Positions 7,646-8,510 of a stretch of DNA of 64,000 bases are shown piece by piece (positions within the stretch are counted from its first letter, which is position 1; each line of letters starts with the position of its first letter). This stretch comes from a virus (Duplodnaviria > Heunggongvirae > Uroviricota > Caudoviricetes), in the IMG/VR virus record IMGVR_UViG_3300046359_000179, positions 11,944 to 75,943 of that record; one strand, given 5' to 3'. The notes beneath the pieces were generated by a model, which worked only from the letters and a program-made list of their open reading frames with translations, ran no database searches and was not told the DNA's origin. The translations under genes were made by a program, and so were the position numbers.

Positions 7646-7735
7646 TGGAGGAGCATAATAGAATCGAACTATCACCGTTTCATCAACGGTGGGACGGTTT
7701 TCAAGACCGTGTGTCTGCCATAGACCCTACACTCC
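7646..7735 (-). tRNA. tRNA-Ser (anticodon TGA), type II with long variable arm, CCA encoded
   Basis: Acceptor GGAGTGT/ATGCTCC (2 GU pairs), D-stem GTC/GAC, anticodon stem ACGGT/ACCGT, loop CTTGAAA, T-loop TTCGATT. Confidence 0.7.
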
Positions 7736-7749
7736 AAAAATACTTTGAT

Positions 7750-7833
7750 TGGATGCCCCAGGTATCGAACCTGGCATGTTATAAAAACGCGGAGTGTTCA
7801 ATTCCGGCCACCTCCTTAGTGGTATAGACATCC
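7750..7833 (-). tRNA. tRNA-like gene (84 nt) with good acceptor, D-arm and T-arm but unresolved anticodon/variable region; may be type II or Ile-TAT-like (TTTATAA loop present)
   Basis: Acceptor GGATGTC/GGCATCC, T-arm CCAGG-TTCGATA-CCTGG; middle region could not be folded by hand. Confidence 0.4.
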
Positions 7834-7850
7834 AATTTTAAAACCCCTTT

Positions 7851-7925
7851 GTCCGGCCAGCTGGATTCGAACCAGCGACTTATTGCTTAGCTTACCACTA
7901 TAGCTTTCGCTACTGAGAATTTTTA
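7851..7925 (-). ncRNA. tRNA-like / small stable RNA element with canonical T-arm and a GAAA-tetraloop hairpin but no recognisable acceptor pairing
   Basis: T-arm GCTGG-TTCGAAT-CCAGC; hairpin TAGC-GAAA-GCTA; no complementary 5' acceptor strand found. Confidence 0.3.
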
Positions 7926-8211
7926 TCTTCCCGCGCGTGGTCTGAGCTTTGTCTTCATCTGTTCTAGATGGTAGCCGTCAAGTCTCTACACGTTCCTTTT
8001 TCAAGGCTTCGCTCGGCGTTGGCATAAAAATACTGTCCTCTGGATTAAATGTATTTATGCAGCGTTCGCCGAATTTGACTACATTCACAATAAACATCCC
8101 TATTTATGTGCCCCATTAGAACTGTTTAACATATTTGCTTCTTATTCATTGTCGTAGAATTATTGTAACTCAAATTATTCTATCTAGAATAATAAATTAA
8201 AATGTACTTTG

Positions 8212-8287
8212 CTCGCCAGAGTGGATTCGAACCACCATTGACTCCGTTACGGTACTACGCTTTAGAAGAGCGCTCCGGTACTGGCGA
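8212..8287 (-). ncRNA. tRNA-like element (76 nt) closed by a 16-bp extended acceptor-type stem; Arg-TCT-like anticodon hairpin and T-arm present, D-arm absent
   Basis: Flanking inverted repeat GTACTTTGCTCGCCAG / CTGGCGAGCAAAGTAC; hairpin GCGCT-CTTCTAA-AGCGT; T-arm GGTGG-TTCGAAT-CCACT. Confidence 0.35.
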
Positions 8288-8396
8288 GCAAAGTACAATC
8301 AGGTAAAAGGTTAAATACTCAAAATTACTCTATCCATCTGAGTTATGGCCGGACAAAGAGGTCTTTCTAATCATATACAAATTTCCAAAACATAAA

Positions 8397-8510
8397 TGGT
8401 AGGCCGTGTTGGACTCGAACCAACGACCAAAGGATTATTCTTCGGCTTCTTTTGTTATTATCCAACAGAATGCCTGAGTCCTCTGCTCTAACCAACTGAG
8501 CTAACGGCCC
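8397..8510 (-). tRNA. tRNA-like gene with ~37-44 nt insertion between the halves of the anticodon stem; CCA encoded
   Basis: Acceptor GGGCCGT/ACGGCCT, D-arm GCTC-AGTTGGTTA-GAGC, anticodon stem halves GAGGA...TCCTT separated by 44 nt, T-arm GTTGG-TTCGAGT-CCAAC. Confidence 0.45.

What the first reader, a model, noticed from the sequence alone, without database searches (positions are those of the whole stretch)
7646..8510. tRNA cluster mixes canonical tRNAs with several non-canonical tRNA-like RNAs
Besides a clean tRNA-Ser(TGA), the cluster holds four further elements. One has a good acceptor and T-arm but a middle region that could not be folded (7750..7833). One has a perfect T-arm plus a GAAA-tetraloop hairpin but no acceptor pairing (7851..7925). 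One is a 76-nt element locked by a 16-bp extended terminal stem, with an Arg-TCT-like anticodon hairpin but no D-arm (8212..8287). One is an otherwise canonical tRNA whose anticodon-stem halves (GAGGA/TCCTT) are separated by ~44 nt, as if it carried a short intron or insertion (8397..8510). These could be analogues of T4 stable RNA species 1/2, processing intermediates, intron-containing tRNAs, or decoys for host anticodon nucleases.
Basis: seen in the sequence. Interest (0 to 1): 0.55.

Follow-up and report, generated by a model that had tools for sequence, protein, structure and literature searches.

The report
Rearranged phage tRNA inside split tRNA
This phage tRNA operon holds an arginine tRNA gene split by a self-splicing-type intron, and inside that intron sits an arginine tRNA of a rearranged architecture that turns out to be widespread in phages and is missed by standard annotation.

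Summary
All five elements exist, on the minus strand, between a promoter-like site (8557-8530) and a terminator-like hairpin (7636-7602).

- **7851-7925** is not an RNA of its own. It is the P9 GAAA hairpin and 3' exon of a canonical tRNA-Arg(UCU). That gene's 5' part lies at 8352-8326, and it is split by about 400 nt holding an IC3 group I intron.
- **8212-8287** lies inside that intron. It belongs to a large phage family of tRNAs with no D hairpin: a covarying 3-bp helix brackets the anticodon arm, and a D-loop-like UAAYGGA follows it.
- **Family evidence.** Of 166 unique members found, 142 carry Arg anticodons and 20 carry Ile/CAU anticodons. A 15/48-like tertiary pair covaries. Members sit in tRNA clusters and are unannotated in cultured phages. 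I read them as functional core-permuted tRNAs.
- **The outer Arg gene looks disabled.** It has 26 extra nt in the anticodon stem and a shifted P7 pairing.
- **8400-8510** is a tRNA(CAU) with a 37-nt hairpin inserted in the anticodon. The insert is conserved in a second lineage and absent in a third. Its fate is unknown.
- **7749-7834** is an odd 86-nt long-variable-arm tRNA. It remains unexplained.
- **7646-7735** is a normal tRNA-Ser.

The parts
8530..8557 (-). Promoter-like site of the tRNA operon: TTGTAA, 16-nt spacer, TATAAT with an upstream TG.
   Evidence: The scan gives 10 of 12 matches plus TG. Relatives L140 and L145 carry TGGTATAAT at the same place.
8400..8510 (-). tRNA(CAU), tRNA-Ile2/Met-like, with an insertion in the anticodon.
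   Evidence: Rfam tRNA scores 57.6 bits with a 40-nt gap in the anticodon loop. The uninterrupted homologue L140:2506-2582 reads GAGGA CTCATAA TCCTT.
8438..8474 (-). 37-nt insert between A35 and U36 (placement ambiguous by 1 nt). The hairpin spans 8474-8444 and is followed by GAAGAA.
   Evidence: The fold has z = -4.0. L145:143-253 carries the same insert with 6 substitutions against an identical tRNA body. These include GGC/GCC to GAU/GUC, which keeps the hairpin base paired. There are no other copies in the window and no Rfam ribozyme hit.
8326..8352 (-). 5' part of the canonical tRNA-Arg(UCU): acceptor 5' strand CCGGCCA, U8 A9, D arm ACTC-AGATGGATA-GAGT, A26.
   Evidence: It makes 7 of 7 pairs with TGGCCGG at 7859-7853. 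ARAGORN -i joins 8352..7851 into one tRNA. The D arm is near-identical to those of intron-bearing tRNAs L082, L034 and L012.
8291..8325 (-). Abnormal end of the 5' exon: ATT + 26 extra nt (8322-8297) + GT + A + CTT. The candidate 5' splice site lies after 8291.
   Evidence: The form expected from homologues is ATTGC CTT directly after A26 (N1M2 tRNA-Arg; L140). ATTGT at 8299-8295 was the only perfect (Watson-Crick/wobble) partner I saw by reading the 5' region for the 3'-exon strand GCAAT; this was not a programmed scan (sequence).
8212..8287 (-). Nested non-canonical (core-permuted) tRNA-Arg(UCU). Layout: acceptor TCGCCAG/CTGGCGA; UA; C; helix CGG/CCG around the anticodon arm GCGCU-CUUCUAA-AGCGU; UAACGGA; GUCAAU; T arm GGUGG-UUCGAAU-CCACU; discriminator G.
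   Evidence: Rfam tRNA scores 36.8 bits with the D arm deleted. Family model R1 scores 85 bits, but this sequence was in the training set. Family covariation is shown.
8204..8296 (-). 16-bp terminal stem. The 9 extra pairs GTACTTTGC/GCAAAGTAC lie outside the acceptor stem, and the 5' strand includes the exon remnant GTACTT.
   Evidence: Fold energy is -42.1 kcal/mol, z = -5.1. Stems this long are rare in the family: 4 of 112 members have at least 6 extra pairs.
8163..8202 (+). Scar of an endonuclease-gene cassette. The insertion point used in haplotype L129 lies at about 8193-8202. A plus-strand promoter-like site (TTGTAA, 16-nt spacer, TAGAAT) at 8163-8190 points into it.
   Evidence: L129 carries about 795 extra nt here with an antisense 251-aa ORF. 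That ORF hits PHROGs annotated endonuclease, homing endonuclease and Holliday junction resolvase (E from 1.6e-9 to 8e-4) and weakly hits NUMOD3 (E 0.0018, below the Pfam cutoff).
7891..8117 (-). Group I (IC3-type) intron core. IGS-like GGGG 8114-8111; P2 8110-8086 (GGGA loop); P3 8082-8077 / 7979-7971; P4 8073-8067 / 8018-8012; P5 8060-8022; P6 8007-7992; P7 7986-7980 / 7949-7944; P8 7969-7957; P9 7941-7894 with the GAAA hairpin at 7912-7901; terminal G at 7891.
   Evidence: Rfam Intron_gpI matches 7942-8138 at 40.8 bits, E 1.1e-8, below the gathering score of 50. The core is collinear with 8 phage tRNA introns. Relative L140 scores 53.5 bits.
7852..7890 (-). 3' exon of tRNA-Arg(UCU): CU AA, GCAAU, AAGUC, T arm GCUGG-UUCGAAU-CCAGC, acceptor UGGCCGG, discriminator A.
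   Evidence: Homologous introns all end GTGGTAAG immediately before the exon. The reconstructed exons best match annotated phage tRNA-Arg genes (FBB1 at 84.7%, N1M2).
7749..7834 (-). 86-nt tRNA with a long variable arm and an irregular anticodon arm. ARAGORN calls it 'Phe-GAA'.
   Evidence: The Rfam tRNA model gives no hit and the phage records give no match. The one substitution in haplotype L129 keeps the variable-arm pair (U-A to U.G).
7646..7735 (-). Canonical tRNA-Ser(UGA).
   Evidence: ARAGORN finds it. It matches many annotated phage tRNA-Ser genes.
7602..7636 (-). Terminator-like GC-rich hairpin flanked by A and T runs, at the end of the operon.
   Evidence: Read directly from the sequence. 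The automatic terminator scan did not flag it.

Best explanation
The region is one phage tRNA operon on the minus strand.

**The split gene.** Its central gene was a canonical tRNA-Arg(UCU) interrupted after U34 by an IC3 group I intron. This is the kind of intron found in bacterial tRNA genes and, as shown here, in many viral contigs.

**The nested gene.** The 5' region of that intron (the P1 loop) holds a second, complete arginine tRNA gene of a different architecture.
- It has no D hairpin. The strand that normally forms the 3' side of the D stem follows U8-A9 directly and leads into the anticodon arm.
- After the anticodon arm and about four nucleotides comes the partner strand. It is followed by a D-loop-like UAAYGGA and a short linker into the T arm.
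- In standard numbering the block 10-21 has moved from before position 22 to after position 47.

**Inference on structure.** This keeps the L-shaped fold and its tertiary contacts: U8-A14, 15-48, and G18/G19 with the T loop. It also keeps A20 and C35, the known arginyl-tRNA synthetase identity elements.

**Inference on function.** The nested gene is this phage's working tRNA-Arg(UCU).

**Inference on the outer gene.** It is being or has been displaced and looks disabled. It carries 26 extra nt plus one extra A in the anticodon stem-loop, a weak guide pairing, an altered P7, and a lost P5 extension and endonuclease gene.

**Likely route (inferred).** A cassette of permuted tRNA plus homing endonuclease inserted into a tRNA gene.

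**Unresolved.** The tRNA(CAU) with the 37-nt hairpin insert and the 86-nt tRNA are real, conserved oddities whose processing and function are not settled.
For: **Split gene**
- The acceptor strands at 8352-8346 and 7859-7853 pair 7 of 7, and ARAGORN -i joins them.
- Rfam group I hit, E 1e-8. The core is collinear with phage tRNA introns that all end GTGGTAAG before the exon.
- Relative L140 has the same tRNA-Arg(UCU) and intron in clean form (TCGGT CTT|...GTGGTAAG|CTAA ACCGA; 53.5 bits). L145 has the intron-less gene.

**Family of the nested element**
- An anticodon-blind scan gave only Arg anticodons among well-formed members: TCT 45, TCG 12, CCT 4, ACG 4.
- On 50 sequences, 95% of cells pair against 61% in shuffles. 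The covariation score is 0.897 against 0.23 (0 of 500 shuffles reach it) and at most 0.18 when partners are slid. The helix bracketing the anticodon arm shows CG, UA, GC and AU types.
- Model R1 scores members at 36-87 bits; in one 18-source test the canonical tRNAs scored at most 25 bits.
- 166 unique hits: 142 Arg, 16 Ile, 4 CAU. The base after the GG is A in 133 of 139 Arg members and U in 14 of 15 Ile members.
- The 15-like purine covaries with the base just 5' of the T stem: A-U 157, G-C 10, of 175; Fisher p = 7e-14, not corrected for phylogeny.
- 75 of 111 members lie within 500 nt of a canonical tRNA. Only 4 of 111 have a canonical tRNA-Arg with the same anticodon in the fetched locus. 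CCA is encoded in 56 of 111.
- Homologues in cultured phages (PAK_P2, Bitten, phiPsa397 and others) are unannotated.

**Displacement and cassette**
- Haplotype L129 has an endonuclease-like ORF right next to the nested tRNA.
- L147 and L239 also have a canonical tRNA 5' fragment directly upstream of a permuted tRNA-Arg.
- HNH, GIY-YIG and other homing-endonuclease-type nuclease domains (PD-(D/E)XK, endonuclease VII, NUMOD3) are the commonest recognisable domains in flanking ORFs.
Against: - No expression, processing, aminoacylation or splicing data exist.
- The window's group I hit is below Rfam's gathering score (40.8 against 50).
- I could not define a convincing P1. The guide GGG would pair with CUU by one G-C and two G.U pairs. 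The strong 16-bp stem sequesters the candidate splice site and offers U-A instead of the usual U.G.
- The intron core is otherwise well preserved, which argues against long-standing decay.
- The nested tRNA's discriminator and flanks are locked in 9 extra base pairs, which could hinder RNase P and 3' processing.
- The family searches were seeded with Arg-like patterns and an Arg-derived model, so the amino-acid spectrum is biased.
- The endonuclease association has no control against canonical tRNAs.
- The 3D claim rests on covariation and sequence analogy, not on a structure.
- I found no prior description in six literature searches, which does not prove there is none.
Confidence: 0.7

Rival explanations
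1. The outer tRNA-Arg(UCU) is still functional. The whole ~400-nt segment, nested tRNA included, is spliced out as one large group I intron that carries a tRNA gene as cargo in its P1 loop. Both tRNAs would then be made from one precursor.
For: All conserved core elements of the intron are present and collinear with intact relatives. The 3' exon is intact, and its position 37 varies A/G between haplotypes as expected for a constrained tRNA. ATTGT...CTT upstream can pair with the 3'-exon strand GCAAT and with the GGG guide (sequence).
Against: - The 5' exon has 26 extra nt between A26+ATT and GT, plus an extra A. The product would have an interrupted anticodon stem and an 8-nt loop.
- P7' reads AAGCTC instead of the AAGTCC seen in L129 and all relatives, which moves the bulged A.
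- The P5 extension strand is missing relative to L129.
- A canonical tRNA-Arg with the same anticodon as a permuted one is rare elsewhere: 4 of 111.
Confidence: 0.2
2. The non-canonical elements (the nested Arg-like RNA, the insert-bearing tRNA(CAU) and the 86-nt tRNA) are non-decoding decoys. They would soak up host anticodon nucleases or other tRNA-targeting defences.
For: Phage tRNAs are known to counter tRNA-targeting defences (PMC10264068, PMC11464382; titles and abstracts seen). An insert in the anticodon (8438-8474) prevents decoding unless it is removed. The body of that tRNA is 100% conserved between lineages while the insert varies.
Against: For the nested family, the evidence fits real adaptors better than decoys:
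- full sets of Arg isoacceptors in single phages;
- A20 in Arg members against U in Ile members;
- a conserved C35;
- the covarying 15-48-like pair;
- complementarity to the canonical tRNA set.

No defence or anti-defence gene was identified next to the cluster.
Confidence: 0.15
3. The 37-nt insert in tRNA(CAU) is a true intron, removed by a protein-dependent cut-and-ligate pathway to give a functional tRNA-Ile2/Met.
For: The insert sits exactly within the anticodon of an otherwise perfect tRNA. An uninterrupted orthologue exists in a related phage (L140). The insert is kept, with a compensatory change in its hairpin, in a second lineage (L145).
Against: There is no bulge-helix-bulge geometry by inspection of the fold, though I ran no formal motif search. 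There is no ribozyme family match. No RNA ligase or splicing endonuclease was seen among the ten neighbouring ORFs scanned. No such pathway is known in bacteria or phages (my own knowledge). Only two sequences support the hairpin.
Confidence: 0.3

Closest known systems
IC3 group I introns in bacterial tRNA genes (Azoarcus tRNA-Ile(CAU), cyanobacterial and plastid tRNA-Leu(UAA), Agrobacterium tRNA-Arg(CCU))
   Same: The core shares the same sequence blocks: GUCAAAUUCGG, CAACGCCGAGC-AAGC, GUGUAGAGACU-GACGGC. It also shares the P9 GAAA hairpin and insertion in the anticodon loop after U34, as in tRNA-Leu(UAA). The comparison with the Azoarcus sequence is from memory.
   Different: This one is in a phage. 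A 2014 review (PMC3984707) stated that all phage introns then known were in protein genes. It has a P1 loop of about 170 nt containing a whole tRNA gene and an endonuclease-cassette scar. Its 5' exon is interrupted, its P7 pairing is altered, and it scores below Rfam's gathering threshold.
D-armless mitochondrial tRNAs, such as metazoan mt tRNA-Ser(AGY/UCU) (PMC7609411)
   Same: There is no D hairpin. The acceptor stem connects through a short linker to an extended anticodon arm, and the anticodon is even the same (UCU).
   Different: The phage family keeps a D-stem-like helix, a D-loop-like UAAYGGA with the GG, a canonical T loop and a covarying 15-48-like pair. It is a rearrangement of all the parts, not a loss. 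It occurs in viruses of bacteria and carries Arg and Ile anticodons.
Circularly permuted tRNA genes of Cyanidioschyzon merolae (PMC3978253)
   Same: The order of tRNA segments in the gene differs from the canonical order.
   Different: In the alga the whole halves are swapped, and the transcript is circularised and re-cut to give a normal tRNA. Here only the internal block 10-21 is moved, the ends are normal, and nothing suggests that the mature RNA is re-joined.
Free-standing homing endonucleases in phage tRNA clusters (T4 SegB) and intron-encoded endonucleases specific for tRNA anticodon regions (I-SspI; reference list of PMC3984707)
   Same: Endonuclease genes sit next to or inside tRNA genes. 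One haplotype carries such an ORF in the intron, and HNH, GIY-YIG and other homing-endonuclease-type nuclease domains are the commonest recognisable domains near family members.
   Different: No cleavage specificity is known here. The idea that the rearranged tRNA gene is a cleavage-resistant allele is only my inference.
Archaeal and eukaryotic protein-spliced tRNA introns (bulge-helix-bulge; PMC4090602)
   Same: A short insert (37 nt) lies in the anticodon loop and extends the anticodon arm as a hairpin.
   Different: The insert lies within the anticodon (34/35 or 35/36) rather than at 37/38. No bulge-helix-bulge is seen in the predicted fold. The host is a bacterial virus.

Membership tests
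Group I intron (Rfam RF00028; IC3 tRNA type) | Match to the covariance model at or above the curated gathering score | tested here: not met
   The window scores 40.8 bits against a gathering score of 50, with E 1.1e-8 over 1151 nt. Relative L140:2641-2834 scores 53.5 bits and passes.
Group I intron (Rfam RF00028; IC3 tRNA type) | Conserved core P3-P8 with J8/7 and a P7 carrying a bulged A, collinear with known members | tested here: met
   The alignment with 8 phage tRNA introns is collinear from the guide sequence to GTGGTAAG. P7 can pair only with the bulged A shifted, because the window has AAGCTC where relatives have AAGTCC.
Group I intron (Rfam RF00028; IC3 tRNA type) | P1: the end of the 5' exon pairs with an internal guide, with U.G at the splice site | tested here: inconclusive
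   The guide-like GGGG (8114-8111) can pair with CUU (8293-8291) through one G-C and two G.U pairs. In relatives, GAG pairs with CUU and covaries (GAA with UUU in L124). The candidate site is also locked in a 16-bp stem with U-A.
Group I intron (Rfam RF00028; IC3 tRNA type) | Flanking exons join to give a functional gene product | tested here: not met
   The 3' exon is normal. The 5' exon has 26 extra nt in the anticodon stem and one extra loop nucleotide relative to the homologues N1M2 and L140.
Group I intron (Rfam RF00028; IC3 tRNA type) | GTP-dependent self-splicing | not testable with these tools
   This needs in vitro transcription and splicing of 8352-7852.
Canonical tRNA (Rfam RF00005; cloverleaf), applied to 8212-8287 | Four-arm cloverleaf with a D hairpin between positions 9 and 26 | tested here: not met
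   Rfam aligns it at 36.8 bits (above the gathering score of 29) only by deleting the D arm and inserting 17 nt in the variable region. ARAGORN with default settings does not call it.
Core-permuted phage tRNA family (defined here; model R1) | A helix of at least 3 bp bracketing the anticodon arm, directly after U8 A9 N | tested here: met
   The window has CGG (8277-8275) pairing with CCG (8252-8250). Across the family, pairs 11-38 and 12-37 show CG, UA, GC and AU types.
Core-permuted phage tRNA family (defined here; model R1) | UAR-N(0-2)-GG-N motif after the helix, a canonical T loop, and covariation of the 15-like purine with the base just 5' of the T stem | tested here: met
   The window has UAACGGA ... 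AU|GGUGG, which gives A with U. In the family the counts are A-U 157 and G-C 10 of 175.
Core-permuted phage tRNA family (defined here; model R1) | Arginine identity set: C35, U/G36 and A at the 20-like position | tested here: met
   The window has anticodon UCU and GGA. In the family, A follows GG in 133 of 139 Arg members, against U in 14 of 15 Ile members. That A20 and C35 are ArgRS determinants is established knowledge for E. coli and was not tested here.
Core-permuted phage tRNA family (defined here; model R1) | Aminoacylation and use in translation | not testable with these tools
   This needs tRNA-seq, acid gels or charging assays.
Bulge-helix-bulge (archaeal/eukaryal) tRNA intron, applied to 8438-8474 | Two 3-nt bulges separated by a 4-bp helix at the splice sites; usual position 37/38 | tested here: not met
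   The predicted fold has 4 nt on the 5' side and 9 nt on the 3' side between the anticodon stem and the insert hairpin. The insert lies within the anticodon. This was judged by inspection only; no dedicated BHB search was run.
allo-tRNA / tRNA-Sec (8/4, 9/3 or 8/5 acceptor/T branches), applied to 7749-7834 | A 12-13 bp acceptor/T branch with a lengthened acceptor stem or shortened T stem; a 6-bp D stem for Sec | tested here: not met
   The acceptor stem is 7 bp, and an eighth pair needs position -1 and the discriminator. The T stem is 5 bp, and the D stem is 4 bp with an 8-nt loop. There is no tRNA-Sec hit on this element.
T4 stable RNA species 1 and 2 | Sequence or structure similarity to T4 rnaC/rnaD | not tested
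   I compared no reference sequence directly. The distant blastn of 7640-8520 against phage records returned essentially tRNA-Ser matches.

The most novel reading that the evidence does not exclude
Phages widely encode functional tRNAs whose core is internally permuted: block 10-21 is moved 3' of the anticodon arm, giving a three-way junction that still builds the canonical L-shape. So far these are seen for arginine and isoleucine anticodons. Gene finders largely miss them, so phage tRNA repertoires are under-counted. The rearranged gene may be favoured because it escapes nucleases that recognise canonical tRNA genes (homing endonucleases) or canonical tRNAs (host anticodon nucleases). In this window such a gene has invaded and replaced an intron-bearing canonical tRNA-Arg.
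Probability: 0.5. Interest if true: 0.9.

Novelty: new variant of a known kind. Interest (0 to 1): 0.8.

Why it matters
**A new tRNA topology.** If the permuted-core RNAs are working tRNAs, they would be, as far as I could find, the first natural bacterial-world tRNAs that abandon the cloverleaf while keeping the L-shape. A 2024 paper states that all known bacterial tRNAs are cloverleaf (PMC11551756 abstract).

This would bear on several things:
- how aminoacyl-tRNA synthetases, RNase P, EF-Tu and the ribosome tolerate altered topology;
- the design of orthogonal tRNAs;
- phage annotation, since members are unannotated in PAK_P2-like and other cultured phages.

**Introns in phage tRNA genes.** The work also shows that group I introns in tRNA genes are common in viral contigs. 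This is contrary to the older view that phage introns sit only in protein genes.

**An evolutionary snapshot.** The window shows one tRNA gene being replaced in place by a rearranged isoacceptor next to a homing-endonuclease cassette.

Tried and rejected
**Searches that found nothing useful**
- Megablast of 7000-9500 against phage records gave no match.
- Exact scans of IMG/VR for the two exon halves found nothing.
- Loci related through the upstream 187-aa protein (43-50% identity) have no tRNAs nearby. The downstream protein gave no viral locus.
- A metagenome scan for the insert core found nothing, so that collection apparently lacks these samples.
- An IMG/VR scan for insert-bearing tRNA(CAU) gave one spurious hit.
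- The 86-nt element has no blastn match in phage records.
- Pfam scans of ten neighbouring ORFs found no RNA ligase, nuclease or CCA-adding enzyme.

**Ideas considered and dropped**
- The two TTTGAGT copies (8322-8316 and 8170-8164) as internal guide sequences. The second is not conserved in haplotype L129 and overlaps a plus-strand promoter-like site for the endonuclease cassette.
- ARAGORN's splice points and its 'tRNA-Ala(agc)' call for the split gene. Its anticodon stem has a mismatch and it needs a 24-nt unpaired variable region.
- The local CCG-UAA-CGG mini-hairpin in the nested tRNA. It is not conserved, whereas the helix bracketing the anticodon arm covaries.
- The extended terminal stem as a family feature. 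Only 4 of 112 members have one.
- The 37-nt and 26-nt inserts as repeated mobile elements. Both are unique in the window.
- The family being cellular. Of the first 100 pattern matches in bacterial and archaeal genomes, one scored as a clear member (71.8 bits, on a 4-kb MAG contig) and five more scored 36.8-38 bits, the same range as the weakest viral hits I counted as members.
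Full report
**Setting**

The window is part of a large T4-like-style phage genome. It encodes UvsW-like and RecA/UvsX-like proteins, a ribonucleotide reductase with Hint-domain hits, and tail-repeat proteins. It has no close relative among deposited phage records.

Every element of the finding lies on the minus strand. The elements sit between a strong promoter-like site (8557-8530: TTGTAA, 16-nt spacer, TG-TATAAT) and a GC-rich hairpin flanked by A and T runs (7636-7602, read).

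The same arrangement recurs at 99.6-100% identity in contigs from other samples (L128, L133, L136). It recurs with a variant intron in L129. It is therefore not an assembly artefact.

**What the automated tools say**

- ARAGORN with default settings finds tRNA-Ser(UGA) at 7646-7735 and an 86-nt 'tRNA-Phe(GAA)' at 7749-7834.
- Rfam at gathering thresholds finds a tRNA at 8400-8510 with about 40 nt inserted in the anticodon loop (57.6 bits). It also finds a tRNA at 8212-8287 (36.8 bits), aligned only by deleting the D arm.
- At relaxed thresholds Rfam reports a group I intron at 7942-8138 (40.8 bits, E 1.1e-8, below the gathering score of 50).

**The split tRNA-Arg and its intron**

*The two halves belong together.*
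- On the minus strand, 8352-8326 reads CCGGCCA UA ACUC-AGAUGGAUA-GAGU A. That is an acceptor 5' strand, a D arm and A26.
- The T arm at 7876-7860 is followed by UGGCCGG-A. This pairs 7 of 7 with that acceptor strand.
- ARAGORN in intron mode joins 8352..7851 into one gene. Its splice points are forced and not credible.

*The sequence between them is an IC3-type intron.*
- It carries the conserved blocks of IC3 group I introns.
In 88 of 122 extracted sites ARAGORN found tRNA exons around a 185-260-nt intron. Most are Leu(UAA), with Lys, Met, Thr, Pro, Ser, Arg, Glu and Asp also present.
- Aligned with the eight nearest of these, the window is collinear from the guide sequence through P2 (GGGA loop), P3-P8 and a P9 domain whose tip is the GAAA hairpin at 7912-7901.
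- All of them end GTGGTAAG immediately before the 3' exon.

*The 3' exon and the identity of the gene.*
- By that homology the 3' exon is CUAA-GCAAU-AAGUC plus the T arm and acceptor strand (7890-7852).
- The reconstructed exons best match annotated phage tRNA-Arg genes. Klebsiella phage N1M2 has exactly ATTGC-CTTCTAA-GCAAT.

*Relatives show the other states of this gene.* These relatives share about 80% protein identity in the neighbouring gene.
- L140/L141 has tRNA-Arg(UCU) with a clean intron of about 215 nt (TCGGT CTT|...GTGGTAAG|CTAA ACCGA; Rfam 53.5 bits).
- L145 has the intron-less gene.

*Context from the literature.* A 2014 review states that all phage group I introns known then were in protein-coding genes (PMC3984707). 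Phage tRNA introns are thus at least poorly documented.

**Why the outer gene looks disabled**

- After A26 the expected ATTGC-CTT is replaced by ATT + 26 nt (8322-8297) + GT + A + CTT (8296-8291).
- The guide-like GGGG (8114-8111) sits where relatives have GAG. It can pair with CUU only through one G-C and two G.U pairs.
- The candidate splice site is sequestered in a 16-bp stem.
- P7' reads AAGCUC instead of AAGUCC, which shifts the conserved bulged A.
- One strand of a P5 extension present in haplotype L129 is missing.

Haplotype L129 also differs in another way. It carries about 795 nt at window position ~8193-8202 with an antisense 251-aa ORF. That ORF hits PHROGs annotated endonuclease, homing endonuclease and Holliday junction resolvase (E from 1.6e-9 to 8e-4), and weakly hits NUMOD3, below the Pfam cutoff. 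The window keeps a plus-strand promoter-like site pointing into that spot.

I could not settle whether residual splicing occurs. That step is inference.

**The nested element is a member of a large family**

*How the family was found.*
- The element 8287-8212 reads UCGCCAG UA C CGG A GCGCU-CUUCUAA-AGCGU AGUA CCG UAACGGA GUCAAU GGUGG-UUCGAAU-CCACU CUGGCGA G.
It gave 84 unique elements with the same layout and 7-bp acceptor stems.
- A scan that ignores the anticodon (GTAAYGGA, 6-16 nt, GGTTCGAATCC) gave only arginine anticodons among well-formed members: UCU 45, UCG 12, CCU 4, ACG 4.

*Secondary-structure covariation.*
- On 50 diverse sequences the four-helix structure pairs in 95% of cells, against 61% in shuffles.
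- The covariation score is 0.897, against 0.23 for shuffles (0 of 500 reach it) and at most 0.18 when partners are slid.
- The short helix that brackets the anticodon arm changes among CG, UA, GC and AU.

*Model searches.*
- A covariance model (R1) scores members at 36-87 bits. In one 18-source test the canonical tRNAs scored at most 25 bits.
- Over the viral loci it finds 166 unique members: 142 Arg, 16 Ile (GAU, UAU), 4 CAU and one UCA. Several phages carry two to five members with different anticodons.

*Signs of real tRNA function.*
- The base after the conserved GG is A in 133 of 139 Arg members but U in 14 of 15 Ile members. This matches A20 as an arginyl-tRNA synthetase determinant, which is established knowledge for E. 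coli.
- The purine after the invariant UA covaries with the base just 5' of the T stem: A-U 157, G-C 10, of 175; Fisher p = 7e-14, uncorrected for phylogeny. This is how the 15-48 tertiary pair behaves in ordinary tRNAs.
- Members sit in tRNA clusters: 75 of 111 lie within 500 nt of a canonical tRNA.
- They rarely coexist with a canonical tRNA-Arg of the same anticodon (4 of 111), and half encode CCA.

*Distribution.*
- Homologues in cultured phages (PAK_P2, Bitten, phiPsa397, SOVA965 and others) carry no annotation.
- Among the first 100 pattern matches in bacterial and archaeal genomes, one scored as a clear member (71.8 bits, on a 4-kb MAG contig). Five more scored 36.8-38 bits, the same range as the weakest viral hits I counted as members.

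**Interpretation of the architecture (inference)**

In standard numbering the order is 1-9, 22-26, 27-43, about four variable-loop-like nucleotides, 10-13, 14-21, a linker ending in 48, then 49-76.

The D stem still forms, but it is closed by the anticodon arm instead of the D loop. The D loop becomes the connector to the T arm. All the universal tertiary partners are present: U8, A14, R15/Y48, G18, G19 and the T loop.

I therefore expect an L-shape reached through a three-way junction. Six literature searches found no description of such tRNAs. That does not exclude one.

**How the nested gene got there (inference)**

- Three of about 174 distinct contexts show a canonical tRNA 5' fragment directly upstream of a permuted tRNA-Arg: the window, L239 and L147.
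- In L147 the fragment is cut after the anticodon loop. The permuted gene has flanking inverted repeats and an HNH ORF follows it.
- HNH, GIY-YIG and other homing-endonuclease-type nuclease domains (PD-(D/E)XK, endonuclease VII, NUMOD3) are the commonest recognisable domains in ORFs flanking family members. I ran no control for canonical tRNAs.
- This suggests a mobile tRNA-plus-endonuclease cassette that lands in tRNA genes.
- The window's 9 extra base pairs around the nested tRNA are unusual for the family: 4 of 112 members have at least 6. They include the exon remnant GUACUU.

**tRNA(CAU) with a 37-nt insert**

- L140 has the uninterrupted gene (GAGGA-CUCAUAA-UCCUU). The window and L145 carry 37 nt between A35 and U36, with placement ambiguous by one nucleotide.
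- The tRNA bodies of the window and L145 are identical, while the insert differs at six positions.
- At the base of the insert hairpin, GGC/GCC becomes GAU/GUC, which preserves pairing. This rests on two sequences only.
- The fold is stable (z = -4.0).
- There is no bulge-helix-bulge by inspection, no Rfam ribozyme match and no second copy in the window.
- Whether the insert is removed or makes a non-decoding RNA is open.

**The 86-nt element**

- It has a 7-bp acceptor stem, a normal D arm with GG, a 15-nt variable arm, a normal T arm and discriminator A.
- Its anticodon arm is either a 4-bp stem with a 9-nt loop, or a 5-bp stem closed by an A.C mismatch with GAA and C37.
- No homologue was found.
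- It remains unexplained.

Noticed in passing
window 10475-12303 (-): An IS607-like pair lies between the two tRNA clusters: a 198-aa serine-recombinase-type TnpA and a 411-aa TnpB/OrfB (HTH_OrfB_IS605, OrfB_IS605 and Cas12f1-like_TNB on the identical genes in L130 and L132).
   Followed up: partly
window 5334-5410 (-): ARAGORN calls this tRNA 'Ser(GCU)', but it is only 77 nt, has a short variable region, and has a D loop AAUUGGA with A at the 20-like position. It is a type-I body carrying a serine AGY anticodon, so seryl-tRNA synthetase recognition is doubtful.
   Followed up: partly
L006-L125 (IMG/VR loci): At least 88 viral contigs carry IC3 group I introns in tRNA genes. Most are Leu(UAA), with Lys, Met, Thr, Pro, Ser, Arg, Glu and Asp also present. 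Two (L039, L055) have ~700-nt introns. A 2014 review said all phage introns then known were in protein genes.
   Followed up: partly
L344, L350, L287, L313, L328, L310 and others: The same D-hairpin-less architecture also carries isoleucine anticodons (GAU, UAU) and CAU, with GGU instead of GGA in the D-loop-like motif. One member (L244:440-527) has a UCA anticodon, like an opal suppressor.
   Followed up: partly
L147:5425-6014; L239 (minus strand, around 6483-6600): In both loci a canonical tRNA 5' fragment is fused upstream of a permuted tRNA-Arg. L147 has a Pro-like fragment cut after the anticodon loop, then the permuted tRNA flanked by GTTTCATG/CATGAAAC, then an ORF with an HNH-like motif (read by eye; not individually confirmed by Pfam). 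In L239 the 3' acceptor strand pairs 7 of 7 with the upstream canonical strand and 6 of 7 with the proximal one.
   Followed up: partly
L140:681-751: Another odd tRNA-like element occurs in the related phage. Rfam tRNA scores it at 35.6 bits and ARAGORN does not call it. It has acceptor, D and T arms but no recognisable anticodon arm.
   Followed up: no
L140:4891-4974 (also in L141, L142 and L143): An 84-nt 'tRNA-Met(CAU)' with a long variable arm occurs in the related phages, next to tRNA-Ser and tRNA-Pro. It is another tRNA whose body type does not match its anticodon.
   Followed up: no
window 56192-58939 (-): The ribonucleotide reductase large subunit shows Hint, intein-splicing and PT-HINT domain hits between its N-terminal and barrel domains. 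This points to an intein, one more mobile element in this genome. All these hits are below their Pfam curated cutoffs.
   Followed up: no
L265 (Pseudomonas phage Bitten, PV037721.1 69066-69142): The permuted tRNA-Arg(UCU) lies in a gap of the record's tRNA numbering: tRNA0006 is followed by tRNA0008. This suggests that a prediction there was dropped before deposition. The adjacent canonical tRNA-Arg has anticodon ACG.
   Followed up: no
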